Source of the DNA: Akkermansiaceae bacterium UBA956
GTDB lineage: Bacteria; Verrucomicrobiota; Verrucomicrobiia; Verrucomicrobiales; Akkermansiaceae
Length of the DNA stretch: 64,000 nt
Assembly: GCA_002293145.1 (NCBI GenBank)
Contig: DBCO01000010.1
Coordinates: forward strand, 217,759 to 281,758
Reading direction: 5' to 3'
Position numbers and translations under genes: made by a program. Every line of letters begins with the position of its first letter. Position 1 is the stretch's first letter. This document shows positions 5,519 to 63,589 of the stretch, piece after piece. The notes below the pieces were generated by a model. It did not search any database, was not told the origin of the DNA, and worked only from the letters and a program-made list of their open reading frames with translations.

Positions 5519-5666
5519 ACTACGGACGCCCACGTTGCGCAGCGGCGGAAAAAATTGCAACCTCTAGTTTTCTTGCCGATTTTCTTTGACATACCAGCAA
5601 CTAGGGGTTGCGCATGACCCCGATTTCCCCTATTGCCGCACCTCACCACCACGAAATCTTCCAATT

Positions 5667-22724: not shown

Positions 22725-25310
22725 TTGCGTATGAAAACCATCGCTATGAACCCAAAGAAATCCATCGCTCTGTGCCTCGTCAGTTGCGCCACCATGCAAG
22801 CCGTGCCACCCGCCCTTGATTTCACCCCACAAAAACAAGTGCCCTACCTTTCGCCCGAGGAATTTCTCAAAACTGTAGAACTTCCTGAGGGCTATTCGCT
22901 TGAACTCGTTCTCAGCGAACCGCAAATCAAAGAGCCCGTCGCCATCGCCTTTGATCCGAATGGCGCGATGTATGTGGCCGAAATGCGTACCTACATGCAA
23001 GACATCGATGGCACCGATGAAATCACGCCGCGTAGTGTCGTCAGTAAGCATGTTAGCAGCAAAGGCGATGGCAATTTCGACATGCATACGGTCTATCTCG
23101 ACAATGTTTTGTTGCCGCGCATGATTCAACCGCTCGATGATCGAATTTTGTTAGGCATCACCAATACGCTCGATCTCACCATTCATCGCGATGCCAATAA
23201 CGACGGCAAAGCTGATGAAAGCAAACTTTGGTTCAAAGGTGGCCCCCGCGGTGGCAACATGGAGCATCAACCTAGCGGACTTGTTTGGGGCTTGGACAAC
23301 TGGATTTACACCACCTACAATTCCTTCCGCCTACGCTGGAATGGAGAAAATGGCACGCCTCTGCAAGAGCCCACGCCGGGCAATGGCGGCCAATGGGGAC
23401 TCGCCCAAGACGACTACGGTAAAATGTGGTGGAGCAATGCTGGTGGCGAAAAAGGCCTGTGGAATTTCCAGACGCCGATCATCTACGGCGCGATCAATGT
23501 GCCCTCGGGAAAAGAAAAGGACTTTGATGTGACTTCGCCGCTCGTAGGTGCGCGCGACTTCCAAGGCGGCCCGCCGAAGTCCCGTCCTGATGGCACGCTC
23601 AATCACTTCACTGGTTGCGCTGGACAAACCGTGTTCCGTGGCGATCGCTTGCCCGCAGAACTTATTGGCAATGTGTTTCTCCCCGAGCCCGTCGGTCGCT
23701 TGATCCGCCGCTCGGTTGTAAGTGATGTGGATGGCATCACCCAGCTCAGCAATCCACATCCGCAATCGGAATTCATCCGCTCGTCCGATCTCTGTTTTCG
23801 CCCACTCAACATGACTACTGGCCCCGATGGCTGCCTCTACATCGTCGATATGTATCGCGGCATCATCCAAGAAGGCAACTGGGTGCGCGAGGGCTCCTAC
23901 CTGCGCAAAGTGGTCGAGCAATACGGATTTCAAAACAACGTCGGTCGCGGTCGTGTCTGGCGTATAGTGCATAAGGATTTCAAGCCCGGTCCCCAGCCCA
24001 AAATGTTAGAAGAAACACCAGCGCAACTGGTCAAGTATCTTGAGCATCCGAACGGCTGGTGGCGTGATACCGCACAGCGATTGTTGATCATCAAAAATGA
24101 CAAAAGTGTCGCGCACGAACTTGTCAGCATGTTCCAATCGAACAAAAATCAACTCGCTCGCATTCATGCTCTGTGGACACTTGAAGGCATGGGCGCTCTT
24201 AGTGCCGATCTCGCTCGCCAAGGCATGAAAGATGCTGATCCACAAATCCGCGTGCAGTCGATTCGCGCCGCCGAGACATTGCTCAAGGCCGGCGATCAAT
24301 CTTTCATCGCCGACATACAAGCCGCCTCTGCTGATGAAAACGTCCACGTCAAACTGCAAAGCGTGCTCACCAGCAAGCTACATAAATTTCCGAATTGGAA
24401 AGAAAATGCCACGCAGATAATCATGCATTCTACCTCGAACGGTCTCAAAGAAATCGGCTCCGCGCTGCTTGCCACTGGCCCTACCATTTCCCAAAATTTC
24501 ACGCCCCAGCAACGCAAGCAATTGGGCGACGGCATGAAATACTACCAAGAGGTCTGCTTCGCTTGCCACGGTCCCGATGGTCAAGGCACTCCCATTCCAG
24601 GCAGCAAAGGGCGTACCCTGGCCCCACCGCTGGCAGGCTCGAAAACCGTGCGCCAAGGTGATGCCATGCTGCGCGTATTGATCAATGGTCTCGAAGGTCC
24701 GATCGAAGGGAAAACCTATGAGTCGCAAATGATTCCACAAAACACCAACAGCGACCAATGGCTCGCCGACATCACCAGCTACGTGCGCAATGCCTTTGGC
24801 AACAGCGGCGAAATCATCGATGCCAAGCAAGTGAAAGCCCTGCGTAAGGAAATCGGCAGTCGCACCAAACCATGGACCATCGAAGAACTCCGCGCGATGT
24901 CGCCGCAGCCTATCGCTGAGAACAAATCCTGGAAATTTACCAGCAGCCATAATCCCGAAAAACTGGCGCTCATGATCGATAACAATCCCGCCACGCGTTG
25001 GGACACCAAGATCCAACAAGCACCCGGCATGTGGTTGCAAATCGATCTCCCAGCTCCAACCGCTTTAGTCGGGATCGAACTCGAATGCGCAGCATCTGCG
25101 AACGACTCCCCAACTCACTTTGAAGCGCAATCCAGCAGCGATGGCAAAACTTGGAAATCCATTGCCAAAGGCCAAGGCACGCCCGGCTTTACCAGCATCA
25201 ATTTTCCTCCCGTCACCAGCCAACATTTGCGCATCCTCCAAAAAGGCACCAAGCCTGGTAAATACTGGAGCATTCACGAACTCAACTTACTCGCTCCTGC
25301 GAAGAAATAA
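22725..25310 (+). CDS. PVC-type membrane-bound dehydrogenase-like protein with HEAT repeats, c-type heme site and C-terminal discoidin (F5/8 type C) domain
   Basis: Signal peptide. Beta-propeller-like N-terminal half (EPVAIAFDPNGAMYVAEM, GPDGCLYIVDMYRGIIQ). HEAT-like segment (HPNGWWRDTAQRLL...ARIHALWTLEGMG...DPQIRVQSIRAAE). CFACHGPDGQG heme-binding motif. The C-terminus NPATRWDT...GMWLQIDL...YWSIHELNL is discoidin-like. Confidence 0.8.
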   Translation: MRMKTIAMNPKKSIALCLVSCATMQAVPPALDFTPQKQVPYLSPEEFLKTVELPEGYSLELVLSEPQIKEPVAIAFDPNGAMYVAEMRTYMQDIDGTDEITPRSVVSKHVSSKGDGNFDMHTVYLDNVLLPRMIQPLDDRILLGITNTLDLTIHRDANNDGKADESKLWFKGGPRGGNMEHQPSGLVWGLDNWIYTTYNSFRLRWNGENGTPLQEPTPGNGGQWGLAQDDYGKMWWSNAGGEKGLWNFQTPIIYGAINVPSGKEKDFDVTSPLVGARDFQGGPPKSRPDGTLNHFTGCAGQTVFRGDRLPAELIGNVFLPEPVGRLIRRSVVSDVDGITQLSNPHPQSEFIRSSDLCFRPLNMTTGPDGCLYIVDMYRGIIQEGNWVREGSYLRKVVEQYGFQNNVGRGRVWRIVHKDFKPGPQPKMLEETPAQLVKYLEHPNGWWRDTAQRLLIIKNDKSVAHELVSMFQSNKNQLARIHALWTLEGMGALSADLARQGMKDADPQIRVQSIRAAETLLKAGDQSFIADIQAASADENVHVKLQSVLTSKLHKFPNWKENATQIIMHSTSNGLKEIGSALLATGPTISQNFTPQQRKQLGDGMKYYQEVCFACHGPDGQGTPIPGSKGRTLAPPLAGSKTVRQGDAMLRVLINGLEGPIEGKTYESQMIPQNTNSDQWLADITSYVRNAFGNSGEIIDAKQVKALRKEIGSRTKPWTIEELRAMSPQPIAENKSWKFTSSHNPEKLALMIDNNPATRWDTKIQQAPGMWLQIDLPAPTALVGIELECAASANDSPTHFEAQSSSDGKTWKSIAKGQGTPGFTSINFPPVTSQHLRILQKGTKPGKYWSIHELNLLAPAKK

Positions 25311-25482
25311 GTCATGCAAAAAAAGTGCGCGGATTAACCCTAAACACAAGTTTTTACTTGCGGGCAAATCTTCTTAGATTTCTAGATTCTAATGACCCAA
25401 TTGCTACACATGATAACGAACGGTGATTCGATTGCACAAGCTCACGAAGAGCGGACTGAAGTCCGCGCTCCGTCAAAGCTTA

Positions 25483-26139
25483 TTACGGGGTAGGTTCGGG
25501 CTCGACGAATTCATCGACGGCGCGGAAGTCCACGGCTTTGCTCTGCGGGTTGACGAAGAAGAAAACATACGAGCGAATTTGTTTTTCGACGGGCCAGCGG
25601 CTGCTGCTCAGTGGGCGATCGCCGCCAGCTTCGCGGACACCGAAGCCGACTTCATAGTAACCTTCCGCTTTCGCGCCGGCAGGTCGTAGGGCTTTGCCTT
25701 GGCCGGGTGGCAAAATGAAGGTGGCTTTGCCGACGAAGCCGAGCACAGTTTTATCGCTGTGATTGTAAAAATACACATCGCCTGGGCGGAAGGAGGCATC
25801 TTTTGCGGGGATGACGGTGTGGATGTAGCCGCCTTTCGGGTTGGGCAACAGTAGGATCACAAAGTCGTTGCCATTTTCGGGCAGGATGATTTTGCAGAGT
25901 TCGAGATTTTTCTCAACGGTGTTTAAGGTGAGGGCGCGGGCCGCGACCTTGACCGGCGCGGAGAGGTTATTCGTGGGTAGGGCAAAGGGCGCGCTTTTGG
26001 TTTCTGCAGTGATGAGATTGACTTGACCGATGACGGCGGGTGCGCGCTCGGCTACGAATCGCAGCGAGATGTTTCCTTTTTCCTGGGCAGTGGCGGCGAT
26101 GGTGCCAAGGCAGAACAAGGTAAGTAGATAACGGAGCAT
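25483..26139 (-). CDS. secreted hypothetical protein, partner of giant pseudopilin-like protein (cassette A)
   Basis: 218 aa with Sec signal MLRYLLTLFCLGTIAATAQE. It starts 20 nt after the stop of the 1177-aa gene. It is a distant homologue of ORF 62912-63589, sharing blocks such as ISLRFV/VSFRVT, DFVILLLP/DLLLIFFP and SYVFFFVNP/KFLFAFVSP. Confidence 0.65.
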   Translation of the reverse strand: MLRYLLTLFCLGTIAATAQEKGNISLRFVAERAPAVIGQVNLITAETKSAPFALPTNNLSAPVKVAARALTLNTVEKNLELCKIILPENGNDFVILLLPNPKGGYIHTVIPAKDASFRPGDVYFYNHSDKTVLGFVGKATFILPPGQGKALRPAGAKAEGYYEVGFGVREAGGDRPLSSSRWPVEKQIRSYVFFFVNPQSKAVDFRAVDEFVEPEPTP

Positions 26140-26159
26140 GAGATGGAGTCGATTTTTAG

Positions 26160-29100
26160 TTAGATTTCATCTGCTTGCAACCAGCGCAATGAGACCAGTT
26201 GGCAGCTGCGACCGAAGGCCTTGTTGGTGTTTGTCAACGGGGCCAGCGTGCTGGCGTTGGTGATGACAACATCGGCGGCATTTGTCGAATCAATATAATT
26301 GGCACTGCGCTCGACGACGGCTTCGCACCAGGCGCGGGCGAGGACTTTTCCTGCGGCATCGACGGATTCACCATAGGCACGGATGATGAAGCTATCAGAG
26401 CGAGTGGTAAGGATGGGTGCGATGGGCGTGAGAATATCGGCCTGCTTGACGATGCCGGGAATGCCGTAGGAGATGGGGGCTTCCTCTGCCTCGGGGAAGG
26501 GGAAAACATTGGAGGCAGCCGATTTGCGGTTGTTGTATGCGCCATTGACTCCGAGTTGGGAGTCATCGAGGGCACTTTGGATGGCACCGCTACGAGCGAG
26601 CTTTTTGTCGCTGCCAGGGCGACGGTTGACGAAGTCGGCTAAGCTGAGAAATGGTCCGCGCTTGCGTACTTCGCGCACGATGCCTTGAGCGAGTCGGCCG
26701 ATTTCATCATCACTGAGGCGGCGTTGGCCGATCCATTGAATCGGGCTGCGTGAGTTAACGCCGGCGCCAGTTTCGGTCGCTGCATTGACGGGAGCGATCA
26801 GTCCTAGCACGGCTGTGGTGCCAGACTCGACGGCTGTGACGGACTCGCGGCCATTGGCATCGCGGGTCACGATAGTGCGTTCGCGCAGGGCAGCGAGCTG
26901 GGCTTTCCAGGCCTCGACGGAGGTGGAGTTGACATTGAACATGCCATCGACACGCATGTAGGCGGCGATGCTGTTGATGCCGATGGTGGTAGGCGAGGGT
27001 CTTGCATTGCTGCCGGAGATGAAGCGCCCGGCAAGAGTGGTGGGATCGGCGATGTTAGGCGCGGGCATGTAGCGGACACAGGGCAGTGATGACGTTTGTT
27101 TGAGGAATTCTTCACACATGGTTTTCATGCCTTTTTTCTCGCTGCTGCTGAAGTTATTGTTGGTGCTGTAATTGGCGAGTCCGGAGAGGAACCAGGTGTC
27201 CCAGAGTTCGCGATTGGCGAGGTAGGAGTGGTCGGCAATGGGGCGGCCCTCTGAGAGAGAGCCACTAATGGCTGCGGGTGCGAGGATCGGTGGGGCAAGC
27301 GAATTGCCAATGGCATGGCTGATCTGCGGCAGCAAGCAATCACGCGCATTGATGGTGGCGTAGCTGGGGGTGGGGCTGAGTTGGATGAAGCCATTGGCCA
27401 TGGAATGCTGGAATGCGGCGAGGGAGACAATGGGCTCGCGGGGGATGGAGTGGGTGCAGACAAAGTTGGAGCCGTCTGCCGCGGTCATGCCGCCACCGAA
27501 GTAACCTTGCCCGTTGGTGCTGGCCTCGATGCTACGATTTTTCCAACTGGACAGTGGCTCGACTTGGATCTCAAAGGGTAAGGTTTGACGCTCGCGCGCG
27601 GAAAGATCATAGAAGTCGTTTTGGAATGATTTCGGGTTGAAGCGGCTGAGGGCGCTGCTGCCCAATGTGCTGCTATTTTCGGTTTTAGCATTGAAGGCAA
27701 AAATCATGATGGGAGACTTGCTGCCGATGAGTTGGGAGCCACTGAGGGTGCGTCCGGAGATCACGGGAAAAACAGTGGGGAAGTTATTGGCATACAGGCG
27801 GTTGCCTTTTTTCTCGTCGCCTGCAGGGGCTTCCGTATCAGCACGGGTTCGCCCTATGACTAAGCGCTTGCGTCCGAAATCATAGTCGATCCCCATGTTT
27901 CCATAGCCTAAGCTGCCACCACTGCTGGTTCGGTCAAAGCCGCTGTAGATCTCGTGGTGAGTCATCGAGAAATGGCGGGTGTGTTCATCTACGCCCGTGA
28001 GTGAATTACCCGTGCCGTTGCGTTTGCCCGCTGTTAGGTTGTTGGGGCGGCACTCGAAGGTAATTGTCGATTGTGGTGTTACGACAAGGGTGGAGCCAGC
28101 AGCTCCGTCGGCAGTCCTTAGTGGAGTGCGGATGCCACCGCCGAAGTTGAAACCGACTTTTGCGTCGATGTCACGTGCGGTTCTCGCGACTGTGCCGTTG
28201 GTTTGCGAAAACTTGAGAACCTCACCCGGTTTCATGACAATTTGGGAGCCAGTATTGCCGATGCGCAGCGTGAAGTAGTTGCGGTCGCCACCACTTTCTA
28301 CAGATGCCACCATGGGATAGCGGACGTTATTGACCCAAAAGTCATAAGGGACTTGCCAGTATTTCACCGACATAAACGAGCTATTGGGAATGACCAGTGG
28401 CACATCGTAGGGATTCCACAAGGTGACTACGGGGTCGCAAACGAGGTGCAGGACGGTGGACTGGGCACCATTGACGGTGGCGGGGAATGCCTGAAGTGAG
28501 AAGATCATCTGGAAGCTGATGATGCTGGGTTGTTTGTAGTAGAACCATTGGTCTGAGCCCTCACTGGGACCAGGAGTGCGGAGGTGGGCTGTGCCGCTGG
28601 ACAATGAGCCCCCTGAGGTGAAGGTAGCGGAGCCACTGCGTGTGAGTTTTTCGCTCAGGGCATAGTAGGAGCCCAATTCACCAAGGTTGATGCCGTAGCT
28701 CTCGGTGCCTGTGCCTTTTCCGGCGACGGCGGTGCCACTGCTATTGATGGAATAAAGCGGGGAGGTGACAAAGTTCGCGGGGGTGGTGGCGGAGGCGTTG
28801 ACGAGCTGGAGTTGTTGCGAAAGGTCTTTGCGAAAACCGCCGGCGCGAACGTTGGTGAGGAGTCCGCTGGAGGAGGGGGTTATGTCGTGGAAGAGTTGGC
28901 GTGATTGATCAGAGTTTTTGCTGATGAGGTCGCTCTGGTTCCAGGAAATGAGCTTGGATATGGACTCGTCTCCATTTCGTAATGCTTCAAATGGCGTGGC
29001 TCCGCCCTCGATGGCTGCCAATTGCACAGCGGAGCGGGGAGCGGCTTGGGACTTTTGCCGCGTGGCACCGAGGGTGCTGCTTTCGGTGAATTTTGGGCTC

Positions 29101-29693
29101 ACCAATGTGGCTTTTACGCTTTGGTCGCCTACCCACCAAGCGAGTCGTGCGTCTTTACCATTGCTCTGGCGTAAGGTGGTGACGGGAGCATAGACAAAGT
29201 CTCTAGGATCATCGCCCACGGTGCCATTACCGACGAGTTCAATGCGCTGGTTTTCAGGGAGCGCATTGCTAGCGTAGTTGAGGTCATCGAGATCATCGGA
29301 GAGACCGGACGTCATCCAGCCCAAGAAATTGGGGGCGGGGCGATTGGTATCAGTGGAGAGCCATGAACGATAAACACCCATCCAGTTTTTCTGGCTGGAG
29401 GCCGCAGAGCTCTCTTCGCCGCTGGCTCCCTTAGTCAGTTGATCAGCCTCGGCGGTGATGCGCTGATCGGGGCCAAGGTTTTTCTGGATTTGACCAATGG
29501 CCATCATCAGTGCCATACGGGCATTGGCGCGAGCTTCCTGCTGGGCGAGGCCTTGGCTGGAAGAGCGCAGGGTGACGGATGAAAGGGATAGCACACCGAT
29601 CGCCACCATGGTCAAGAGGACCAATAATGAGATCGTAATGATTAGTGTGAATCCTTTCTTATGCGAAGAGGATTTTGGAAAATGGGTTGTCAT
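26160..29693 (-). CDS. giant (1177 aa) GspK/PilX-like pseudopilin-type protein, cassette A
   Basis: Prepilin-like N-terminus KKG|FTLIITISLLVLLTMVAIGVL without Glu at +5. PilX_N-like helix ARANARMALMMAIGQIQ. GspK-like C-terminus (FNVNSTS; RGPFLSLADFVNRR; RSDSFIIRAYGE...AVVER). A ~750-aa Gly/Ser/Thr/Asn-rich insertion lies between the two ends. Confidence 0.75.
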   Translation of the reverse strand: MTTHFPKSSSHKKGFTLIITISLLVLLTMVAIGVLSLSSVTLRSSSQGLAQQEARANARMALMMAIGQIQKNLGPDQRITAEADQLTKGASGEESSAASSQKNWMGVYRSWLSTDTNRPAPNFLGWMTSGLSDDLDDLNYASNALPENQRIELVGNGTVGDDPRDFVYAPVTTLRQSNGKDARLAWWVGDQSVKATLVSPKFTESSTLGATRQKSQAAPRSAVQLAAIEGGATPFEALRNGDESISKLISWNQSDLISKNSDQSRQLFHDITPSSSGLLTNVRAGGFRKDLSQQLQLVNASATTPANFVTSPLYSINSSGTAVAGKGTGTESYGINLGELGSYYALSEKLTRSGSATFTSGGSLSSGTAHLRTPGPSEGSDQWFYYKQPSIISFQMIFSLQAFPATVNGAQSTVLHLVCDPVVTLWNPYDVPLVIPNSSFMSVKYWQVPYDFWVNNVRYPMVASVESGGDRNYFTLRIGNTGSQIVMKPGEVLKFSQTNGTVARTARDIDAKVGFNFGGGIRTPLRTADGAAGSTLVVTPQSTITFECRPNNLTAGKRNGTGNSLTGVDEHTRHFSMTHHEIYSGFDRTSSGGSLGYGNMGIDYDFGRKRLVIGRTRADTEAPAGDEKKGNRLYANNFPTVFPVISGRTLSGSQLIGSKSPIMIFAFNAKTENSSTLGSSALSRFNPKSFQNDFYDLSARERQTLPFEIQVEPLSSWKNRSIEASTNGQGYFGGGMTAADGSNFVCTHSIPREPIVSLAAFQHSMANGFIQLSPTPSYATINARDCLLPQISHAIGNSLAPPILAPAAISGSLSEGRPIADHSYLANRELWDTWFLSGLANYSTNNNFSSSEKKGMKTMCEEFLKQTSSLPCVRYMPAPNIADPTTLAGRFISGSNARPSPTTIGINSIAAYMRVDGMFNVNSTSVEAWKAQLAALRERTIVTRDANGRESVTAVESGTTAVLGLIAPVNAATETGAGVNSRSPIQWIGQRRLSDDEIGRLAQGIVREVRKRGPFLSLADFVNRRPGSDKKLARSGAIQSALDDSQLGVNGAYNNRKSAASNVFPFPEAEEAPISYGIPGIVKQADILTPIAPILTTRSDSFIIRAYGESVDAAGKVLARAWCEAVVERSANYIDSTNAADVVITNASTLAPLTNTNKAFGRSCQLVSLRWLQADEI

Positions 29694-29729
29694 TAAGAAC
29701 TAGGCTGGGTTCGTGCTGTATAACTAATT

Positions 29730-29785
29730 CATTTACGTAGTGAACACAAGTAAAAAGTGTAACTTGCACATGAACTACGTAAATG
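29730..29785. promoter_or_regulatory. 12-bp perfect inverted repeat (CATTTACGTAGT ... ACTACGTAAATG) upstream of cassette A
   Basis: The arms lie at 29730-29741 and 29774-29785 with a 32-nt spacer. Each arm contains the palindrome TACGTA. The near arm lies 37 nt upstream of the ATG at 29693, inside a ~500-bp ORF-free divergent intergenic region. Confidence 0.5.
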
Positions 29786-30197
29786 CGCAGCTAGAGTGGC
29801 AGATTTTTTGCGGAAAAACGACTGCCTAAATGGGTGATGGGGAAATGATCTGTTGTGTCTGGCGTTAGGGCTTGGGCATTTGTCCCGCCGGACAGTGATT
29901 ATGACGTTTGTTTTTTTATTCGCAAACCCCGAAGATACTTATGTGACTATGAAGGATGGTAGCGAATTGATCGATCTGCTCCCTTAGCAAGGATTGCTCG
30001 ATGCTGCGATCTGAGCAAAGAGGTCAGTGAACATCTGAATCAACGGCTGCATCGAAACAACCTTCGTCCCATGAAAGCTCCCTGAAATGCTCAACCATTA
30101 AGCTGCGCGCCATGCGCTGTTGACGATTCAGCATCAATTCATTTCGTGAAAGCCGCCCTTGATCCTTTGCGTATCAGCAGCTGTGAAGTTGCATCAA

Positions 30198-32960
30198 ATG
30201 GCATGGGGATTGAGCTGGATGGTCATGGCCGTGCAGGCGGAGGATCATTGGGCGTATGTTCCACCGGTCATGCCGGCTTTGGGGGCGGAGGGGCATCCGG
30301 TGGATCAATGGCTTGCTGTGGCACATAAGGAACGCGGCATCGTGCCGGCGGATTTAGCGGCACCGCGTGATTGGGTGGAGCGCGCGGCTTATACTTTGTG
30401 TGGATTACCTGCTACGCCCGAGCAAATTCGCAAAATCGAGGCACAGCCCGACGATGCAACATGGCGCAGCATTATTGATGAAATGCTAGCCTCCCCTGCC
30501 TATGGCGAACGTTGGGCGCGGCATTGGATGGATGTCGCGCGCTATGCCGATACCAGCGGCTACGCCTTCGAGCAGGACAATCGTTTTCCCTTTGCCTACA
30601 CCTATCGCGATTGGTTGGTGCGGGCTTTCAATGAGGACATGCATTATCCCGATTTCATCCGTTGGCAGCTCGCCGGTGATCTAATTACTGATCGGCCCGA
30701 TCACCCGAACCTCGCCGCGCTTGGTTTCATTACCGTCGGTCCGCGCAGTGGTCCTGTCGAAACGATCGATGATCGTGTGGATGTGGTATCGCGTGGATTT
30801 CTTGCCACCACCGTCGCTTGCGCGCGATGCCACAAGCACAAGACCGATCCGATTGTGATGGAAGATTATTACTCGATGTATTCGATTTTCGAAAACCTCG
30901 AAGAGCCGCCCGAAAAACCCGTGATCGGCAAAGCCGCAGATCCCGCTGCTGAAGCAGCCTTTTTGGCCGAAGTCGTCAATTGGGAAAAGCAAGATGAAGC
31001 CGTGCGGCAAGAACTGGTCAACCACATTCGCGCGCCTGAACACCTCGCCGTTTACCTCGCTCTCGCATGGATCGCAAAAAAAGAGCAATGGGATCATCCT
31101 AAGGCCACCAGCGAAGTATTCAAACGTGGCCGCTACCGACCCGATGGCGTATTGCATTGGCGAGACTTTTTGCAAGGCAAAGCCTGGGACGCCAAGAGCT
31201 CACCGCGCCTGTCCGCATGGGCCGCCGCGATGGAGCAGTCCGACGAGGCAAAACGCAACGCACTGTGCCAAGAACTCTCTCAAGAATGGACAAGCGCCGC
31301 CGAGGGCAGCGAACTTGCTCAATTGAAAACCCAGGGCAACTGTCCGCTGAACTACGATGTTCATCGTATTTCCGCATTGTTCGACCGCGAGGATGATGTC
31401 AAGCGCCGCGAACGTCTCAGCGCTCTGAGCCGACTTCAAGCTGACCATGATGGTTCACCGCCGCGCGCCATGGTGATCAAGGACAAAGCACAATGGCAGA
31501 AGGCGCAAATTTTTCTGCGTGGCAATCCGGCGACGCGTGGTGACTTCATTGATCGGCAATGGCTGTCATTTCTGGGCGGCGAAAAATTTCCCGAGGGTAA
31601 AAGCCCACGCCTGTCTCTAGCAGAAAAAATCATCGATCCCGCTAATCCGCTCACAGATCGGGTGATTGTGAATCGCATTTGGGCCTGGCACTTCGGTCAA
31701 GCATTAGTGGAACCTAGCGACTTTGGCTACCAAACACCGCAGCCAGCCTTGCACGCATTGCTCGATGGTCTGGCAATACTTTTCCGCCAACGCGGATCCT
31801 CGATGAAGGAAATGCACCGTCTTCTTCTTAGCTCGCGCGCCTATCGCCTCAAAGCCGATGGTGCGGAGAAAAATCGCAGCATTGATGAAGCGAACGAACT
31901 TTTTTGGAAATGGAATCGTCGCCGTGCTGACTTTGAATCCATGCGTGATCGAGTCCTCGCTACCGCTGGCTCTTTGCAAGCGGACCAACGCGGTGGTCGT
32001 GCGCGCAAACTCGAAGACCCCGCGATGGATGCGCGACGCAGTCTTTATGCTTTCATTGATCGCTACGACATGCCTACGACATTGGTCTCCTTTGATCTAC
32101 CGCATCCCGATCATCACAGCGGCAAACGTGTGGAAACCATCGTGCCACAGCAGGCGCTGTATTTTCTCAACGGACCACTAGTGCAGCGTAAAGCGCAAGG
32201 TCTTTCGCAGAGTGCGGGCTTCCTCGCCTGTGCGGACGATGCCGCACGCGTCAACTGGATTTACCAACAACTATACCAACGCCAACCGAGCGAGTCAGAA
32301 GCGCAGCGCGTGCTGGCTTGGGTTCGTGAGGGCGATGCGGCCAGCTACCAAGCACCGCTCGGTGGGCATTGGGAAATCCGCCATGCTCCAGATCAAGCCG
32401 GCGTTCTCGGAGCAGAGCAGACATTTCCGATGTTCGAAGGCAATACATGGAAAACGGGCGCTGACCTTGCCCATGCACCGATTCCATGGCTCAGTGTCGG
32501 ACCAGGTTTCGGCCACCCCAGCCAAGGTCATGCTCTGATCATTCGTTGGCGTGCTAGCGGTGCGGGTCTGGTGCGCATGCAAGGAGAAATCAGCAAACCA
32601 CAAGATGGTGGCGATGTGCTCGCTTGGGAAGTTTACGCAAAGGATCAGCGCAAGCTCAGCGGCGGCATGCTCGCGCCGAAGCAACATCAAGCGATCAGCA
32701 CCGAGTGGATTCCCGTGCAAGCAGGTGAGGCGATTGATTTTGTGTATCGTGCGCCAAACGGTCAAAACAACGGCGGCACGCATTGGAAAATTCGCGTCAT
32801 CGGCAAAGAGCATGCTGAGGGAGATGAGCGGGAAATTGGCGACTTCGAGAAACAATTTCCCCACAGTTCTGAAGTGCCCGCTGCGCCAGCATCCGTCTCA
32901 CCGTGGGCTGACGTGATCCAAATGCTGTGGGCGGCGAATGAATTTCACTTCATTGATTGA
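30198..32960 (+). CDS. PSCyt2/PSD1 (DUF1549/DUF1553) domain protein with extra C-terminal beta-rich region
   Basis: Signal peptide from the ATG at 30198 (MAWGLSWMVMAVQA). DUF1549-type ERWARHWMDVARYADTSGY. CARCHKHKTDPI motif. DUF1553-type RGNPATRGDF...NRIWAWHFG and FDLPHPDHHSGKRVETIVPQQALYFLN. About 200 additional residues follow. Confidence 0.85.
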   Translation: MAWGLSWMVMAVQAEDHWAYVPPVMPALGAEGHPVDQWLAVAHKERGIVPADLAAPRDWVERAAYTLCGLPATPEQIRKIEAQPDDATWRSIIDEMLASPAYGERWARHWMDVARYADTSGYAFEQDNRFPFAYTYRDWLVRAFNEDMHYPDFIRWQLAGDLITDRPDHPNLAALGFITVGPRSGPVETIDDRVDVVSRGFLATTVACARCHKHKTDPIVMEDYYSMYSIFENLEEPPEKPVIGKAADPAAEAAFLAEVVNWEKQDEAVRQELVNHIRAPEHLAVYLALAWIAKKEQWDHPKATSEVFKRGRYRPDGVLHWRDFLQGKAWDAKSSPRLSAWAAAMEQSDEAKRNALCQELSQEWTSAAEGSELAQLKTQGNCPLNYDVHRISALFDREDDVKRRERLSALSRLQADHDGSPPRAMVIKDKAQWQKAQIFLRGNPATRGDFIDRQWLSFLGGEKFPEGKSPRLSLAEKIIDPANPLTDRVIVNRIWAWHFGQALVEPSDFGYQTPQPALHALLDGLAILFRQRGSSMKEMHRLLLSSRAYRLKADGAEKNRSIDEANELFWKWNRRRADFESMRDRVLATAGSLQADQRGGRARKLEDPAMDARRSLYAFIDRYDMPTTLVSFDLPHPDHHSGKRVETIVPQQALYFLNGPLVQRKAQGLSQSAGFLACADDAARVNWIYQQLYQRQPSESEAQRVLAWVREGDAASYQAPLGGHWEIRHAPDQAGVLGAEQTFPMFEGNTWKTGADLAHAPIPWLSVGPGFGHPSQGHALIIRWRASGAGLVRMQGEISKPQDGGDVLAWEVYAKDQRKLSGGMLAPKQHQAISTEWIPVQAGEAIDFVYRAPNGQNNGGTHWKIRVIGKEHAEGDEREIGDFEKQFPHSSEVPAAPASVSPWADVIQMLWAANEFHFID

Positions 32961-43619: not shown

Positions 43620-43638
43620 AATGGGGTCAGTCCTTGGA
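43620..43638 (-). repeat. 19-bp repeat copy 1 (reverse orientation): TCCAAGGACTGACCCCATT
   Basis: Read directly from the sequence. It overlaps the last codons and stop (ISKD*) of the Y1/HUH gene. Confidence 0.9.
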
Positions 43639-49690: not shown

Positions 49691-49767
49691 GGAGCGGTAG
49701 CTCAGTTGGTTAGAGCGCCAGCCTGTCACGTTGGAGGCCGCGGGTTCAAGTCCCGTCCGCTCCGCCA
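49691..49767 (+). tRNA. tRNA-Asp (anticodon GTC)
   Basis: GGAGCGGTAGCTCAGTTGGTTAGAGCGCCAGCCTGTCACGTTGGAGGCCGCGGGTTCAAGTCCCGTCCGCTCCGCCA. The acceptor stem GGAGCGG/CCGCTCC, the anticodon loop CT-GTC-AC, the T-arm GGTTCAAGTCC and an encoded CCA are all present. It closely parallels E. coli tRNA-Asp. Confidence 0.95.
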
Positions 49768-49819
49768 CTCACTCAGGTTTTTCAGATTATTTGTTTTTGT
49801 TTTTCAATGTTTTTGCAAG

Positions 49820-50304: not shown

Positions 50305-50339
50305 TATGTTCATACTATACCTTTAGGAGAGACGCCGCC

Positions 50340-51023: not shown

Positions 51024-51032
51024 TAGGTTGTT

Positions 51033-59360: not shown

Positions 59361-62300
59361 ATGAACCCTACTTTTGTTAACTTCCTCGGCGATAACCCAG
59401 GAGCCCGTGGTCGATTTCCTCGTGATTTTACGCAGGCTCGTGGCTTTACTCTGATTGTCACGATCTCGTTGTTGGTGCTGCTAACTTTGATCGTGGTAGG
59501 CCTTCTTTCTTTGTCTGCCGTGAGTTTGCGCGCCAGTTCTCATGGGGCTTCTATCTCGATAGCACGAGCGAATGCGCGGCTCTCCGTGATGATGGCATTG
59601 GGTGAGTTGCAAAACACAATGGGTTCAGATCGCAACATCACTGCGCCCGCGAGCATTCTCGATAAAAATCCAGAAACAGTGCAAGCAGATGGAGTAAAAC
59701 ACCCGCGTTACTCGGGAGTATGGCAAGCTCGTGCTGAAACCATCGATGCGATGCCAGATTATTCTCGTGAGCCATTTTTTCGTGAATGGTTGGTGTCTCA
59801 TCGGGATCAATCAGCGCTTCAGAAACTCGATTTTGCGGAAAATGGCACGCTGCCTGATCCAGTAACCATTTACGAAATTAAAACCTCGGCAAACGATACG
59901 GAGCAAGTTCAGGCGGGGAAAGTTCCCACTGACAATGGAGCTCTGGCATGGTATGTGATCGACGAAAATTGCAAAGCTTCGATCAATCGGCGAGATGAGC
60001 GTGAGCGCGCAGGGGATGAAAACATTGCCGATCTCCTCGCAGGTTATGCAACACCTGGAACTCAAGGTATTACAGCATTGGATGAGTTTGAAGAATTTCC
60101 TGCAAATACCACCACAAGTGATAAATTCTACTCCATCAATTCTCTATCGCTCGCAGAAAAAGGAGAAAAGTATTTTCAATCACACGCGCACCTCACGCCT
60201 TATGCAGAAAGCGTTTTAGCCAATGTCACGACGGGCTCATTGCGTAAGGATTTGAGTTTGTATCTTGAGCGGACGGATTTGAGTTGGCAAGCTGGCTGGG
60301 GTTTGGCTGGGGGGCAATCGGGACTGCCGCGGAGTCCGCTTGGTCCTAACAAGTTGATTTCACTCAGCGCTCCGAACCAATACGACGTTCTATCGTGGAA
60401 AAATCTCTACCATTGGTCTCAAATGCATCGCCAGCAACTGCGCTCGGGGGCTTTGCAGTTTGCGGCCATGGATAATCAAGCTGCAGTTCATCAGCTCACA
60501 AATCCATCATGGAACAGCTCCGTCACCCGCATTGCCCCCGTAATGATGCGTATGCAGATGGTTCTCTCCTATAGCATGCGGAGAACGGATGCGAGTGCTC
60601 CACCTGATGCGAATGGCGAATCCGAATATGAGCTATTGATGCATGCGTATCCAGTCGTCACGCTGTGGAATCCTTTCAATGTTTCAATGTTTGTAAGAGA
60701 GTGGAGTTGTTTTCTTCACACACTACCCTTGGAGCATACGATATTCAAAAATGATGCGAAAGTTACGATGACGGAAGAAGGTTCTAAAAATGGAACATTC
60801 AATTGGGGTTGGCCTCGGGGTAACATGACGATGCGCGTGGGAGGAAGTACTGGTCCATCGGTCACGTTAGCTCCTGGTGAATCAAAATTGCTCACCTATA
60901 AAACCGCGCAAGCGGGTGGGTTCAATGCTCACGATATGACTGAGCAATTCAATGCATGGTTGCCTAGTGCCGCAGGGGAGCCGCGTATCGCTGGGAAAAT
61001 TCGGGCAAAATCGAGTGATTCCATTTCTGTGCGCACGGAGATGTCGCGATGGGAGACAAGTGGCACTTCGTATTCAGGGGCTGACTTTCAGACAACTTTT
61101 GATTTCCGTTGTGAGCCGCGTGCCGTGCATGCAGGACATGATCAAAACTTTCTCAAATTTATGTTTTGTGGCCAAGTGGGATGGCGGCATGAGGCAGGAA
61201 ATCCCAGCCCCATCACAGTCTCCGAAAGAAATTATCCCAAGAAAACTGTCGCTGCATTGTTGAACACGGCGTCACCCTTTATCAACCTGGATGTCCGATA
61301 CAAGACACTCGATGAGCAACAGTTGCCTAACAAAAGCTGGCTGCATAATATTCCCATGCATCCATATGCTGCGGCAACTTCCACGAGTAAGCATGCCAGT
61401 AAAGGTGTCGATGCCAAAACCCCGTTCTTTTCGCATCCCTATGCCATTAACTTCGAGCAGATCAATGGCATTGCAGGTGTCGTGCAAAATCGTCCGTTCA
61501 TTGGTTTGAGCAATCGCCCCGGTGGCGAGCCACGCATCGCCGCGGTTTCCGTTCCGCTTGCGCCTCTTACGTCGTTGGCACAGTTGCAAAATTTACCACT
61601 TTTGCCCATTGAAGCGCTGAATTGGAGTGGACATTATTTGCAAAATCAAGCGATCGGTAACTCATACGCGATGCCGGGGCTAGCACCAACTGCCATCAAA
61701 CAGACATCGTTTCCCTTTTACTTGGGGCAATATTTTGCGTGGCAAGGTGGCGATATTGCAGGGAATACGTACCAAGCAAAAAATGCATTCAATAACGCGG
61801 ACTATACCATCAGTGCGGCGCCTGCATCACTCGTAGATCGGAGCTATGTGGCGAATCATTTGCTCTTCGATGAATACTTTTTCTCCTCGATGTCTGCGCA
61901 AACGGGGCCGATCTTTAAAAAATACGGGAAGGAGAGAACTTTGAAGGTTGTGGTCGAAGATTTCTACAATAACAACAGGCGTCTTCCCATTGCGGCGTAT
62001 CGCCCCTATCTCAGCGGTAAAGAAGTTACCCCTGAACGTCTCGTGCCACTATTGACTTCGAGAGCGGGGTCAACGGCTACCGCCCACCTCATTGCTGCCA
62101 GCCGCATGATGGTAGAAGGAGGCTTTAACATCAATTCCACATCTGAGCCTGCCTGGCGCGCCATGCTTGCTGCGGCGCATTTAAAACGTCCTGTAACGAT
62201 GAACGGTAATACTCTGAAGGCGGAAAAGGCTTCAAAATTTCTCGTCAATCGACACTCCGCACCATTAGCTGGCGCTGCGGGCAATGGCTCGGGTACCGCA

Positions 62301-62897
62301 GAAGAATCCAATCGTTGGTTAGGATATCGCGAACTTACGGAAGAAGAAATGGAACAACTCGCCGAAGCCATCGTTCGCCAAGTCAAACTCCGCGGCCCAT
62401 TCCGCTCGCTCGGCGAGTTCGTCAATCGACGTCGTTCTTCCGATACAGAGATGGCGCGCTACGGAGCTCTTCAAGCTGCTCTCGAAGACCCCAAGGTGGA
62501 TATTAATAAAAATTATCGTGGCTCTGGGAATGAAATTTCTTCGGCAAATATTGCCGGCACCAACTACAAGTTTCCTGCTGCTGCGCTGGGCTCAAAGTTT
62601 CAAGGCACCCCAGCCTACATTTCTCAAGCGGACATTTTGACTCCCATGGCTCCCATCATCCAAGCCCGTTCTGATACCTTTGTCATTCGCGGCTATGGTG
62701 AGGCAAAAGCGAAGAATGGAGCCATCATTGCGCGCGCCAGTTGCGAGGCCGTGGTTCAGCGAGTCCCCGATTTTGTTGACTCGCTAGATGCTGCTGATGT
62801 TGCAGAAAATCTTCTCAAATCACCGATCAATCGAGTATTCGGCCGACGTTTTGTTGTAAAATCTTTCCGCTGGCTTGCCGATAGCAGCGAAATCTAA
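59361..62897 (+). CDS. giant (1178 aa) GspK/PilX-like pseudopilin-type protein, cassette B
   Basis: ARG|FTLIVTISLLVLLTLIVVGLL, ARANARLSVMMALGELQ, central PVVTLWNPFNV, and the C-terminal motifs FNINSTSEPAW, RGPFRSLGEFVNRRR and RSDTFVIRGYGE...AVVQR. It is collinear with ORF 26160-29693 along its whole length. Confidence 0.75.
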   Translation: MNPTFVNFLGDNPGARGRFPRDFTQARGFTLIVTISLLVLLTLIVVGLLSLSAVSLRASSHGASISIARANARLSVMMALGELQNTMGSDRNITAPASILDKNPETVQADGVKHPRYSGVWQARAETIDAMPDYSREPFFREWLVSHRDQSALQKLDFAENGTLPDPVTIYEIKTSANDTEQVQAGKVPTDNGALAWYVIDENCKASINRRDERERAGDENIADLLAGYATPGTQGITALDEFEEFPANTTTSDKFYSINSLSLAEKGEKYFQSHAHLTPYAESVLANVTTGSLRKDLSLYLERTDLSWQAGWGLAGGQSGLPRSPLGPNKLISLSAPNQYDVLSWKNLYHWSQMHRQQLRSGALQFAAMDNQAAVHQLTNPSWNSSVTRIAPVMMRMQMVLSYSMRRTDASAPPDANGESEYELLMHAYPVVTLWNPFNVSMFVREWSCFLHTLPLEHTIFKNDAKVTMTEEGSKNGTFNWGWPRGNMTMRVGGSTGPSVTLAPGESKLLTYKTAQAGGFNAHDMTEQFNAWLPSAAGEPRIAGKIRAKSSDSISVRTEMSRWETSGTSYSGADFQTTFDFRCEPRAVHAGHDQNFLKFMFCGQVGWRHEAGNPSPITVSERNYPKKTVAALLNTASPFINLDVRYKTLDEQQLPNKSWLHNIPMHPYAAATSTSKHASKGVDAKTPFFSHPYAINFEQINGIAGVVQNRPFIGLSNRPGGEPRIAAVSVPLAPLTSLAQLQNLPLLPIEALNWSGHYLQNQAIGNSYAMPGLAPTAIKQTSFPFYLGQYFAWQGGDIAGNTYQAKNAFNNADYTISAAPASLVDRSYVANHLLFDEYFFSSMSAQTGPIFKKYGKERTLKVVVEDFYNNNRRLPIAAYRPYLSGKEVTPERLVPLLTSRAGSTATAHLIAASRMMVEGGFNINSTSEPAWRAMLAAAHLKRPVTMNGNTLKAEKASKFLVNRHSAPLAGAAGNGSGTAEESNRWLGYRELTEEEMEQLAEAIVRQVKLRGPFRSLGEFVNRRRSSDTEMARYGALQAALEDPKVDINKNYRGSGNEISSANIAGTNYKFPAAALGSKFQGTPAYISQADILTPMAPIIQARSDTFVIRGYGEAKAKNGAIIARASCEAVVQRVPDFVDSLDAADVAENLLKSPINRVFGRRFVVKSFRWLADSSEI

Positions 62898-62911: not shown

Positions 62912-63589
62912 ATGTTAAAAATGCTACCACTTTACCAACTCATCGCGTCGCTGTGCATTGCTATGGTGACACCAGCCCTGTCACAAGCCGATGCCGCGAA
63001 ATCGCCGAAAGTTTCGTTCCGCGTCACTCGCTTCGATCCTGGTGATGGCACCTCACCCAAGTTCCGCGTGGGTACGGAGCAAAAAGAATGCGAGGTGCCT
63101 TTGACCTCCATCGAAGGACCATTCTCGGCAACCTTGCGCGATGGCACGTACTTGGATTTTTGGGGGGCTGCTGCGGACAATCCTGAAATCTCGGTGGCGA
63201 TCGCGGCAAACGAACGCAAAGATCTGTTGTTGATTTTTTTTCCCGATGGGAAAACGTTTCGTTTGATGAAAGTGGTGACATCTGCTGATCGCATGCAAGG
63301 CGGGTACCAGATGATCATCAATACCACACCTGATGAGATCGGAGTGAAACTCGGGACGGCGGAGCCAGTGATCATTTCCTCGGGGAAGAGTGGAACTCTC
63401 AAGACTCCAACAGCGGCCAAAAATGCATCGATACCCGTAGTGGTCAACGTGAAAAAAGCGGGGAAGTGGACACTGGTGAGCACCGAAGATTGGCCCCATG
63501 AGCCAACCGTGCGAAAGTTCTTATTTGCGTTTGTTTCACCGCGCACCAAGCATTTGATGTTTCATACGGTCTCGGAGATGGTGGAATAG
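62912..63589 (+). CDS. secreted hypothetical protein, partner of giant pseudopilin-like protein (cassette B)
   Basis: 225 aa with signal peptide LIASLCIAMVTPALSQA. It begins 14 nt after the giant gene and is a distant homologue of ORF 25483-26139. Confidence 0.65.
   Translation: MLKMLPLYQLIASLCIAMVTPALSQADAAKSPKVSFRVTRFDPGDGTSPKFRVGTEQKECEVPLTSIEGPFSATLRDGTYLDFWGAAADNPEISVAIAANERKDLLLIFFPDGKTFRLMKVVTSADRMQGGYQMIINTTPDEIGVKLGTAEPVIISSGKSGTLKTPTAAKNASIPVVVNVKKAGKWTLVSTEDWPHEPTVRKFLFAFVSPRTKHLMFHTVSEMVE

What the first reader, a model, noticed from the sequence alone, without database searches (positions are those of the whole stretch)
25483..29693. Cassette A: a 1177-aa GspK/PilX-like 'giant pseudopilin' plus a 218-aa secreted partner, with no other pilus or T2SS genes nearby
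Seen in sequence: ORF 26160-29693(-) begins with a basic n-region and then KKG|FTLIITISLLVLLTMVAIGVL. This is a class-III (prepilin-like) G-F-T-L signal with no Glu at +5, as in GspK. A PilX_N-like helix follows (QQEARANARMALMMAIGQIQ). The last ~330 aa carry motifs I recognise from the T2SS minor pseudopilin GspK. These are GMFNVNSTSVEAW (compare the N-[VI]-N-T-A motif), LSDDEIGRLAQGIVREVRKRGPFLSLADFVNRR (HhH/SAM-like segment), and the terminal ILTPIAPILTTRSDSFIIRAYGE...ARAWCEAVVER. Between the two ends lie ~750 aa of Gly/Ser/Thr/Asn-rich sequence in which I recognise nothing. Canonical GspK is ~300-350 aa, so this is a 3-4x expanded version. A 218-aa Sec-signal protein starts 20 nt downstream. 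Nothing else in the 64 kb resembles GspG/H/I/J, a prepilin peptidase, a secretin or a pilus ATPase. Inference: a tip-type minor pseudopilin that displays a large passenger module (adhesin or enzyme) together with a dedicated partner. It may belong to the barely characterised family I recall as TIGRFAM 'Verru_Chthon cassette protein A'. If so, its usual small prepilin-type neighbours (B, C, D) are missing here.
Basis: partly seen in the sequence, partly recalled or inferred. Interest (0 to 1): 0.8.

Follow-up and report, generated by a model that had tools for sequence, protein, structure and literature searches.

The report
Giant pilus-tip-like protein with partner
A 1177-residue protein with the start of a pilus-tip subunit, always encoded next to a small secreted two-domain partner, belongs to a very large unnamed Verrucomicrobiota family that is probably a plug-in tip for a pilus machine encoded elsewhere, but this is not proven.

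Summary
Both ORFs, all quoted motifs, the 20-nt spacing and the absence of pilus or T2SS genes in the 64 kb were verified.

The N-terminus is a GspK/PilK-type prepilin signal: basic leader, G|F-[AT]-L, never Glu at +5, and a 59-residue helix. It is homologous to the GspK helix (hhalign 92%, E 6e-7).

The claimed GspK-like C-terminal motifs are not statistically supported (P about 0.01-0.02; Foldseek 3CI0_K E 0.39). The protein is not a TIGR02600 member (31 bits against a cutoff of 332).

Covariation shows that the extreme C-terminal strand contacts the end of the N-terminal helix. About 1000 residues are therefore inserted in a domain built from both termini, as in CpaL/ComZ-type apical pilins.

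The body has no match in Pfam, NCBIfam, PDB or BFVD despite a confident model (pTM 0.86). The partner is a tandem Ig-like beta-sandwich protein and lies directly downstream in about 88% or more of 89 relatives. A second, diverged module lies at 59361-63589. The family has over 5000 clusters at 50% identity.

Best reading: an orphan, interchangeable tip module for a type IV filament. This is a new variant of a known kind.

The parts
26160..29693 (-). Giant gene, 1177 aa (mature protein about 125 kDa): a candidate apical (GspK/PilK-class) pilin-like protein with an insertion of about 1000 residues
   Evidence: ORF. More than 460 full-length homologues. AF2 model with pLDDT 84.4 and pTM 0.86. No Pfam family and only N-terminal NCBIfam matches.
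29652..29693 (-). Class-III (prepilin-type) leader, residues 1-14 (MTTHFPKSSSHKKG), with predicted cleavage after G14
   Evidence: Basic n-region. Family-wide, G(-1), F+1 and L+3 are at least 90% conserved and +5 is never Glu.
29475..29651 (-). Alpha-1 helix, residues 15-73; the only segment with significant homology to GspK and to the N-terminus of TIGR02600
   Evidence: AF2 helix H15-73. hhalign against a GspK profile: probability 92%, E 6e-7, 65 columns. TIGR02600 positions 1-59 match at E 6e-8.
27054..29306 (-). Beta-rich body, residues about 130-880. It has no detectable relative outside the family and is the least conserved part (residues 300-330 and 540-630), but it carries invariant motifs (NVRAGGFRKDLS, WNP, PGE, AIGNS, DHSYLAN..LWD).
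26163..26996 (-). Conserved C-terminal module, residues 900-1177, containing FNVNSTS, the HhH-like segment 993-1045 and three terminal strands (1101-1111, 1117-1133, 1162-1172)
   Evidence: Highest information content in the family at residues 991-1140. Resemblance to the GspK body is only marginal.
26178..26210 (-). Extreme C-terminal beta-strand, residues 1162-1172 (RSCQLVSLRWL), which covaries with the end of alpha-1 and the first strand
   Evidence: Mean-field DCA: pair 73-1164 ranks 2nd, 80-1164 ranks 11th and 61-1106 ranks 18th among all pairs scored.
26140..26159 (-). 20-nt intergenic spacer between the giant and small genes (co-transcription inferred)
   Evidence: Gaps in relatives are mostly -25 to +45 nt.
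25483..26139 (-). Partner gene, 218 aa: Sec-exported protein made of two beta-sandwich (Ig-like) domains
   Evidence: AF2 pLDDT 90.7. Best Foldseek matches are the PepT1/PepT2 extracellular tandem Ig-like domains (E 2e-7, TM about 0.5). No Pfam or NCBIfam hit. Conserved neighbour.
25451..25466 (-). GC-rich hairpin (GCGGAC-ttca-GTCCGC) 17 nt after the partner's stop codon; a possible operon terminator, weak because no T-run follows
   Evidence: Read from the sequence. Not reported by the consensus scan.
29694..30158 (.). 465-nt divergent intergenic region upstream of the giant gene (presumed promoter region)
   Evidence: One sigma-70-like match at 29925-29898(-), not above the shuffle expectation.
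59361..62897 (+). Paralogous giant gene, 1178 aa; 27-34% identical to the first, with leader ...ARG|FTLIVTISLL
   Evidence: BLASTP E 1e-61 and 1e-30. Only the N-terminus matches TIGR02600, at 22 bits. No Pfam hit.
62912..63589 (+). Paralogous partner gene, 225 aa, starting 14 nt after the second giant gene
   Evidence: BLASTP to the 218-aa protein: 25% identity, E 5e-10. It aligns along its whole length in A2.

Best explanation
The pair is an 'orphan tip module' for a type IV filament (a type IV pilus or a T2SS-like pseudopilus) whose machine, major pilin and I/J-type minor pilins are encoded elsewhere in the genome.

Shown here:
- The giant protein starts with a prepilin-type leader and a 59-residue alpha-1 helix homologous to that of GspK.
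- It lacks Glu+5, the hallmark of the apical subunit.
- Its two termini are the most conserved parts, and they covary with each other.
- It is nearly always followed by a co-diverging, Sec-exported tandem Ig-like protein.

Inferred:
1. A prepilin peptidase cleaves after G14 and leaves the protein anchored in the inner membrane by alpha-1, with the ~120-kDa body in the periplasm.
2. The extreme C-terminal strand completes the small pilin-like domain formed by the N-terminal strands. This is the cis beta-strand addition described for GspK, CpaL and ComZ.
3. The Ig-like partner binds the body, either as a chaperone or as a co-adhesin.
4. The complex nucleates filament assembly and rides at the tip, exposing the large body as a binding head.
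5. Several diverged modules per genome (two in this window, up to four in tandem in relatives) supply alternative tips.
For: N-terminus: motif and logo. G14, F15 and L17 are at least 90% conserved in a family with 27% mean column identity. hhalign to a GspK profile gives probability 92-95% and E 6e-7 to 5e-8. NCBIfam matches the TIGR02600 N-terminus at E 6e-8 and the GspK N-terminus at E 0.1, and at 3e-4 in relatives. AF2 predicts helix 15-73.

Domain built from both ends: residues 1-90 and 991-1140 are the most conserved. DCA couplings 73-1164, 80-1164 and 61-1106 rank 2nd, 11th and 18th. N-C pairs are the most enriched inter-segment class (1.57x against 0.17-1.0x).

Pairing: the partner lies directly downstream in 78-79 of 89-90 relatives, and in more by eye. 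Divergence of the two proteins is correlated (Spearman 0.80 over 80 pairs), and paralogue types match. No third conserved gene exists.

Multiplicity: a second module lies in the window. Tandem arrays occur in L044, L048 and L063. Many assemblies appear twice among the 80 best loci.

Lineage: relatives' flanks hold genuine prepilin substrates (TIGR02532 plus H-X9-DG) and PilT-type ATPases (L027).

Precedents: PilK-class pilins lack Glu+5 and can carry large insertions before a C-terminal donor strand (CpaL of about 600 aa, ComZ) (PMC13533445). Interchangeable tips encoded at separate loci are described in Myxococcus (PMC12075869).
Against: - No pilus or T2SS gene lies near the module, in the window or in 83 related loci, so no genomic link to any machine was shown.
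- The body shows no significant sequence or fold similarity to GspK or any other pilin.
- TIGR02532 and Pfam N_methyl do not match.
- I could not inspect the model's coordinates, so the pilin-like topology of the N+C domain rests on covariation and secondary structure only.
- Whether a ~125-kDa head plus partner can pass a secretin is unknown. From my own knowledge, PilY1 is of similar size.
- About 10% of family members lack a detectable partner.
Confidence: 0.5

Rival explanations
1. The giant protein is an inner-membrane-anchored envelope protein. The pilin-like N-terminus serves only as a bitopic anchor, cleaved or not. The ~120-kDa body and its Ig-like partner work in the periplasm, for example in envelope or polysaccharide handling, and are never incorporated into a filament.
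For: No machine or other pilin genes are linked. Neighbouring genes are housekeeping genes that differ between genomes. The body has no pilin or adhesin signature. The partner is an ordinary Sec-exported periplasm-type protein.
Against: A plain anchor would not conserve G(-1), F+1 and L+3 at 90% or more, nor a GspK-like alpha-1 of pilin length. The systematic absence of Glu+5 and the N-C covariation fit an apical pilin.
Confidence: 0.2
2. The giant protein is a cargo with a class-III signal. It is processed by the prepilin peptidase and then displayed on, or released from, the surface by a T2SS-like system without forming a filament tip. This would be comparable to archaeal bindosome proteins or to the expanded prepilin-type H-X9-DG proteins of PVC bacteria (comparison from my own knowledge).
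For: PVC genomes hold many prepilin-type proteins that lie outside pilus operons. Examples with TIGR02532 plus H-X9-DG occur in the flanks of related loci. The modules are scattered and multi-copy.
Against: Those proteins keep Glu+5 (GFTLVELLV), whereas this family never has it. The alpha-1 helix is specifically GspK-like and TIGR02600-A-like.
Confidence: 0.15
3. It is a true Verru_Chthon cassette protein A (TIGR02600) whose B, C and D neighbours were lost or moved elsewhere.
For: The best NCBIfam match is TIGR02600 (E 6e-8). The sizes are similar (model of 1296 positions) and the phylum is the same.
Against: Only model positions 1-59 align, at 31 bits against the curated cutoff of 332.3. The paralogue and 6 of 7 distant relatives match the same way at 16-27 bits, and the seventh has no match. 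No B/C/D-type gene is adjacent in the window or in 83 loci. Instead, the conserved neighbour is a non-pilin Ig-like protein.
Confidence: 0.05

Closest known systems
GspK / XcpX, the T2SS apical minor pseudopilin (NF037980; Pfam PF21687 + PF03934; PDB 3CI0)
   Same: Prepilin-type leader, no Glu+5, and a homologous alpha-1 helix (hhalign 92%). A domain is inserted in the pilin fold, and terminal beta-strands follow an S..F.[IV]R-like motif. There are weak, collinear resemblances at FNVNSTS / INvNTA and at the HhH-like segment.
   Different: It is 3.5 times larger. It scores 12 bits against a cutoff of 130. The alpha-domain is not detected by Pfam and Foldseek gives E 0.39. The gene is not in a gsp operon and has no gspI/J neighbours. 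It has a dedicated non-pilin partner.
CpaL/TadG (Tad pili) and ComZ (Thermus competence pilus): PilK-class pilin-like proteins with large insertions (PMC13533445; PMC6561018)
   Same: A pilin-like N-terminal domain, a large insertion, and an extreme C-terminal strand that folds back on the N-terminal sheet. Here that fold-back is supported by covariation. The presumed role is tip and adhesin.
   Different: The insertion is about 1000 residues, against about 470 in CpaL. No sequence similarity was detected, and neither a vWA domain nor a beta-solenoid was recognised. The gene lies outside any pilus locus and has an Ig-like partner.
PilY1 / PilC / MshQ tip adhesins
   Same: Similar size (about 1100-1200 aa) and the same presumed position at the filament tip.
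   Different: Those proteins are Sec-exported non-pilins that donate a strand in trans to PilK and are encoded next to pilVWX. Here the pilin-like helix and the head are one polypeptide. No beta-propeller or Neisseria_PilC domain was found.
Verru_Chthon cassette protein A (TIGR02600)
   Same: Same phylum, similar length, and a related N-terminal 59 residues.
   Different: The rest of the model does not align. The cassette partners B, C and D are absent.
Interchangeable minor-pilin 'Tips' of the Myxococcus Kil/Tad pilus (PMC12075869)
   Same: Several alternative tip sets per genome that expose variable domains and are encoded away from the machine.
   Different: Those are complexes of several small minor pilins and have experimental support. 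Here each module is one giant pilin-like protein plus one non-pilin partner, without experimental data.

Membership tests
T2SS minor pseudopilin GspK (NF037980 / PF21687+PF03934) | Prepilin-type leader with G(-1), a hydrophobic alpha-1 and no Glu at +5 | tested here: met
   Sequence KKG|FTLIITISLL. In the family logo, +5 is V/A/I. G14, F15 and L17 are at least 90% conserved.
T2SS minor pseudopilin GspK (NF037980 / PF21687+PF03934) | Alpha-1 region homologous to GspK | tested here: met
   hhalign A3 against A4: probability 92%, E 6e-7, 65 columns; 94-95% with the N-terminal sub-alignment.
T2SS minor pseudopilin GspK (NF037980 / PF21687+PF03934) | Whole-protein score above the curated cutoff (130 bits) | tested here: not met
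   12.1 bits, E 0.1, residues 13-78 only.
T2SS minor pseudopilin GspK (NF037980 / PF21687+PF03934) | Alpha-domain with two SAM/HhH-like subdomains (PF21687, PF03934) | tested here: inconclusive
No Pfam hit at E<=1. T2SSK hit in 1 of 37 members at E 0.06, and HHH_6 in 2 of 37. One of 60 shuffles reached the score. Foldseek 3CI0_K: E 0.39, probability 0.14.
T2SS minor pseudopilin GspK (NF037980 / PF21687+PF03934) | Encoded in a gsp operon next to gspI/J | tested here: not met
   No Gsp homologue in the window. Neighbours are DUF7133/cytochrome c and PSCyt2/PSD1 genes.
Verru_Chthon cassette protein A (TIGR02600) | Score of at least 332.3 bits over the 1296-position model | tested here: not met
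   31 bits, positions 1-59 only. The paralogue scores 22 bits. Of 7 distant family members, 6 score 16-27 bits and one has no match.
Verru_Chthon cassette protein A (TIGR02600) | Adjacent cassette genes B, C and D (small prepilin-type proteins) | tested here: not met
   No other prepilin-type N-terminus in the window. Only 4 canonical prepilin ORFs occur in about 1.3 Mb of flanks, and none is adjacent.
Type IV pilin-like proteins (TIGR02532 IV_pilin_GFxxxE / Pfam N_methyl) | Match to the prepilin cleavage/methylation domain model | tested here: not met
   No hit at E<=1. This is expected because the model includes Glu+5. Control proteins from relatives' flanks do match, at 26-28 bits against a cutoff of 16.3.
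PilK-class apical pilins with a cis C-terminal donor strand (GspK, CpaL, ComZ; PMC13533445) | The extreme C-terminal strand packs onto the N-terminal pilin domain | tested here: met
   DCA pairs 73-1164 (rank 2), 80-1164 (rank 11) and 61-1106 (rank 18), with N-C enrichment. AF2 predicts terminal strands 1101-1111, 1117-1133 and 1162-1172.
PilK-class apical pilins with a cis C-terminal donor strand (GspK, CpaL, ComZ; PMC13533445) | Works with PilI/PilJ-type minor pilins and a type IV filament machine | not testable with these tools
Nothing is linked in cis.
PapD-like periplasmic chaperones (considered for the 218-aa partner) | Two Ig-like domains with the PapD fold | tested here: not met
   Two beta-sandwich domains are predicted, but no PapD/FimC-type chain appears among the 50 Foldseek PDB matches listed. 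The best matches are the PepT1/2 extracellular domains.

The most novel reading that the evidence does not exclude
Verrucomicrobiota carry a phylum-wide, multi-copy system of swappable giant pilus tips. Each tip is a ~125-kDa single-chain fusion of an apical pilin with a head of unknown fold, and each is paired with its own Ig-like cofactor and encoded away from the pilus machine. These would be the largest pilin-like proteins described, and a new way to diversify what a type IV filament binds (for example particles or polysaccharides).
Probability: 0.35. Interest if true: 0.7.

Novelty: new variant of a known kind. Interest (0 to 1): 0.55.

Why it matters
Type IV filament tips decide what a pilus binds and whether it assembles at all. 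Recent work shows that the apical PilK/GspK-class subunit licenses assembly through its C-terminal strand and can carry inserted adhesin domains (PMC13533445).

This family would extend that principle in four ways:
- an insertion of about 1000 residues with no recognisable fold;
- an obligate non-pilin partner;
- a scattered, multi-copy gene organisation;
- a phylum, Verrucomicrobiota (important polysaccharide degraders in water, soil and gut), where pili are almost unstudied.

The family comprises more than 5000 clusters at 50% identity and has no Pfam or NCBIfam model. Naming it would therefore annotate thousands of large 'hypothetical proteins'.

Tried and rejected
1. A profile of the giant family against all PDB sequences gave no hit at E<=10. 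The partner profile gave only a chance hit.
2. Foldseek of the whole giant model against PDB and BFVD gave nothing below E 0.08. The top hits were porins with probability 0.03 or less.
3. I ran hhalign of 'stitched' N+C sub-alignments against GspK, to see whether removing the insertion extends the alignment past alpha-1. The scores were no better than with control segments (56 against 59).
4. I tested whether longer, more distant family members (1295-1373 aa) are TIGR02600 members. None is.
5. The upstream ABC transporter of the second module (55616-59227) is not conserved with the module in other loci.
6. I searched for a third conserved gene by clustering all flank ORFs. None was found; the recurrent clusters are shadow ORFs inside the giant gene.
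7. Two PilT-like ATPases lie 3.3 kb downstream in L027. This is a single case and was treated as coincidence.
8. Literature search for 'Verru_Chthon cassette' returned 0 papers. One search was rejected for syntax.
9. I considered that the partner might donate a strand in trans. This was set aside because its conserved C-terminal strands are integral to a confidently folded sandwich.

Full report
**1. What is in the sequence**

The two ORFs are exactly as described. ORF 26160-29693(-) encodes 1177 aa and ORF 25483-26139(-) encodes 218 aa. Their coding sequences are 20 nt apart. All quoted peptide motifs are present at residues 12, 51, 917, 993, 1087 and 1119.

The pair stands alone. Upstream lies a divergent PSCyt2/PSD1 gene (30159-32960). 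Downstream lies a convergent DUF7133/cytochrome c/F5-F8 gene (22725-25310). A GC-rich hairpin follows the small gene. It is a weak terminator candidate, and the consensus scan did not report it.

The window has no type IV filament genes:
- phmmer with the twelve E. coli Gsp proteins found nothing in any stop-to-stop ORF.
- A strict motif scan found no further prepilin N-terminus.
- Pfam scans of the large ORFs gave only housekeeping and PVC-typical genes.

**2. A second module and a very large family**

The window holds a diverged second copy. ORF 59361-62897(+) encodes 1178 aa and is followed 14 nt later by ORF 62912-63589(+), 225 aa. The large proteins are 27-34% identical (E 1e-61) and the small ones 25% identical (E 5e-10).

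A word-indexed search gave more than 460 full-length homologues of 1100-1220 aa. Nearly all are unnamed or labelled 'hypothetical'. A few are labelled PilX or PulG by JGI, and none has a Pfam domain. The named sources are Luteolibacter, Haloferula, Akkermansiaceae and other Verrucomicrobiota.

An exhaustive profile search of 1.84 billion cluster representatives found 5333 clusters at E<=1e-3, of which 3168 are at E<=1e-30. A scan of GTDB species genomes found at least 585 relatives. The best 80 are all from Verrucomicrobiota, and many assemblies appear twice. The closest relatives (94-96% identity) are freshwater Akkermansiaceae and Verrucomicrobiae MAGs.

**3. The partner is a conserved neighbour**

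In three complete genomes a 220-223-aa gene follows the giant gene after 12-14 nt, while the wider neighbourhood differs. These small proteins are 49-56% identical to the window's 218-aa protein.

Across the fetched loci, I counted giant genes that have enough downstream sequence to hold a partner:
- 79 of 90 have a BLAST-detectable partner directly downstream.
- 78 of 89 have one by HMM.
- Several of the 'missing' cases do have one on inspection (L023, L055, L063). A few truly differ (L030, L046, L052).

Divergence of the giant protein and its partner is correlated (Spearman 0.80 over 80 pairs). The one locus with an orthologue of the second module (L071) pairs a C-type giant protein with a C-type partner. 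No third gene is conserved. Modules occur in tandem arrays: four giant genes with three detected partners in L044, and three giant genes in L048 and L063.

**4. The N-terminus is a GspK/PilK-type prepilin signal**

The family logo is a basic leader, then G, then F-[A/T]-L-[V/I]-[V/A/I]-T-L-S-L-M-V-L-L. Glu never occurs at +5. G14, F15 and L17 are at least 90% conserved in an alignment with 27% mean column identity.

AlphaFold2 gives a confident model (mean pLDDT 84.4, pTM 0.86) with one continuous helix over residues 15-73, which is pilin alpha-1 length.

Profile-profile comparison with a 40-sequence GspK alignment matches 65 columns over this helix (probability 92%, E 6e-7). The N-terminal sub-alignment gives 94-95%.

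NCBIfam matches cover only this segment:
- TIGR02600 positions 1-59: 31 bits, E 6e-8.
- GspK: 12 bits, E 0.1.
- ComGE: E 0.3.

According to PMC13533445, PilK/GspK homologues invariably lack Glu+5 and are the most apical subunits.

**5. The rest is not demonstrably GspK**

- Pfam finds nothing at E<=1 in either protein.
- Among 37 diverse members, PilX_N appears in 10 (best E 0.0014), T2SSK in 1 (E 0.06) and HHH_6 in 2.
- hhalign of the C-terminal 300-480 residues against the GspK body gives only short local matches. Their P values are 0.01-0.02 and their probabilities 2-4%.
- One of 60 column shuffles reached the observed score (z about 3.3).
- Stitching the N- and C-terminal segments did not extend the alignment.
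- Foldseek of the whole model against PDB has no hit below E 0.08. GspK (3CI0_K) is rank 4 with E 0.39 and probability 0.14.
- BFVD gives nothing. A family profile against PDB sequences gives nothing.

The GspK-like C-terminus therefore remains a lead and is not an established result.

**6. Not a TIGR02600 member**

The score is 31 bits against the curated cutoff of 332.3. The paralogue scores 22 bits. Of seven distant relatives of 1295-1373 aa, six score 16-27 bits and one has no match. Only the first ~60 model positions ever align. No B/C/D-type prepilin genes are adjacent in the window or in 83 loci.

**7. The two termini fold together**

Conservation is highest at residues 1-90 and 991-1140, and lowest at 300-330 and 540-630.

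I ran mean-field DCA on 337 family sequences (Neff 260), restricted to five segments. Inter-terminal pairs rank very high among about 107,000 pairs: 73-1164 is 2nd, 80-1164 is 11th and 61-1106 is 18th. N-C is the most enriched inter-segment class (1.57x, against 0.17-0.24x for N or C with the 400-495 control).

The end of alpha-1 and the first strand therefore contact the last strands (1101-1111, 1117-1133, 1162-1172). This makes the ~1000 residues in between an insertion in a domain built from both ends. PMC13533445 describes the same layout for PilK-class pilins with a cis C-terminal donor strand and a large insertion (CpaL, ComZ). I could not inspect coordinates, so the sheet topology itself is inferred.

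**8. The body and the partner**

The body is confidently folded, mostly beta between residues 390 and 720. It carries family-invariant motifs but matches no known family or fold.

The partner model is also confident (pLDDT 90.7): a signal helix followed by two beta-sandwich domains. Its best structural matches are the tandem Ig-like extracellular domains of PepT1/PepT2 (E 2e-7, TM about 0.5). These are generic matches that do not indicate a function, and no PapD-type chaperone appears among the listed matches.

**9. Mechanism**

The best-supported reading (confidence 0.5) is an orphan tip module. After prepilin peptidase cleavage, the giant protein would act as the apical subunit of a type IV filament, with its body as the exposed head. 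The Ig-like partner would bind it as a chaperone or co-adhesin. Multiple diverged modules would provide alternative tips, as shown experimentally for the Myxococcus Kil pilus (PMC12075869).

What is shown: the homologous N-terminal helix, the absence of Glu+5, the covariation between the two termini, the conserved gene order, the co-divergence and the multiple copies per genome. What is inferred: cleavage, incorporation into a filament, tip location and the partner's role.

The lineage does encode prepilin substrates and PilT-type ATPases, but no link to a machine was shown.

Rivals:
- a membrane-anchored periplasmic protein (0.2);
- a class-III-signal cargo or surface-display protein (0.15);
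- a degenerate Verru_Chthon A cassette (0.05).

**10. Verdict**

This is a real and very widespread family that has never been modelled. It is a new variant of the known apical-pilin-with-insertion theme.

Noticed in passing
window 76-5560 (-): A Wadjet/Mks-type condensin-like defence operon. JetC is an SMC-like ATPase at 76-3396. JetB (DUF4194/MksE) is at 3393-4022. JetA (PF18982) is at 4037-5560. JetD would lie beyond the left end of the window.
   Followed up: partly
window 49691-52000: tRNA-Asp at 49691-49767(+) is followed by a ~2.2-kb islet of 33% GC, against about 52% elsewhere. The islet holds small ORFs: 50340-51023 (no Pfam hit; its sequence ends in a hydrophobic stretch), 51033-51410, and 51471-51908 (rhodanese domain). 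It looks like a small acquired insertion next to a tRNA.
   Followed up: partly
window 43627-44640 (-): A 337-aa ORF with an IS200-like Y1 transposase domain in its first ~110 residues. It is longer than a typical IS200 TnpA.
   Followed up: no
window 55616-59227 (+): A 1203-aa fused ABC transporter (ABC_tran + ABC2_membrane) with an uncharacterised ~460-aa N-terminal extension, directly upstream of the second giant module. The linkage is not conserved in other loci.
   Followed up: partly
L044, L048, L063 (related loci): Tandem arrays of giant+small modules on one strand: four giant genes with three detected partners in L044, and three giant genes in L048 and L063. L075 and L080 have two partner-like genes in tandem after one giant gene.
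   Followed up: partly
L027 16853-19006: Two adjacent PilT-like T2SSE ATPase genes lie 3.3 kb downstream of a giant+small module in one Akkermansiaceae MAG. It is a single case, probably coincidental.
   Followed up: partly
L010 17549-18403, L076 5363-6103, L011, L045: Canonical prepilin-type proteins (GFTLVELLV, with Glu+5) lie 1-7 kb from the modules in relatives. The two that were scanned (L010, L076) carry TIGR02532 plus an H-X9-DG C-terminal domain. The link is not systematic, but they show that the lineage has prepilin peptidase substrates.
   Followed up: partly
window 26160-29693, residues 1123 and 1164: The window protein has Cys at 1123 (invariant among close homologues, in AWCEAVV) and at 1164 (not conserved; this is the residue with the strongest covariation to position 73). 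A C-terminal disulfide like that of many pilins is conceivable but was not examined.
   Followed up: no
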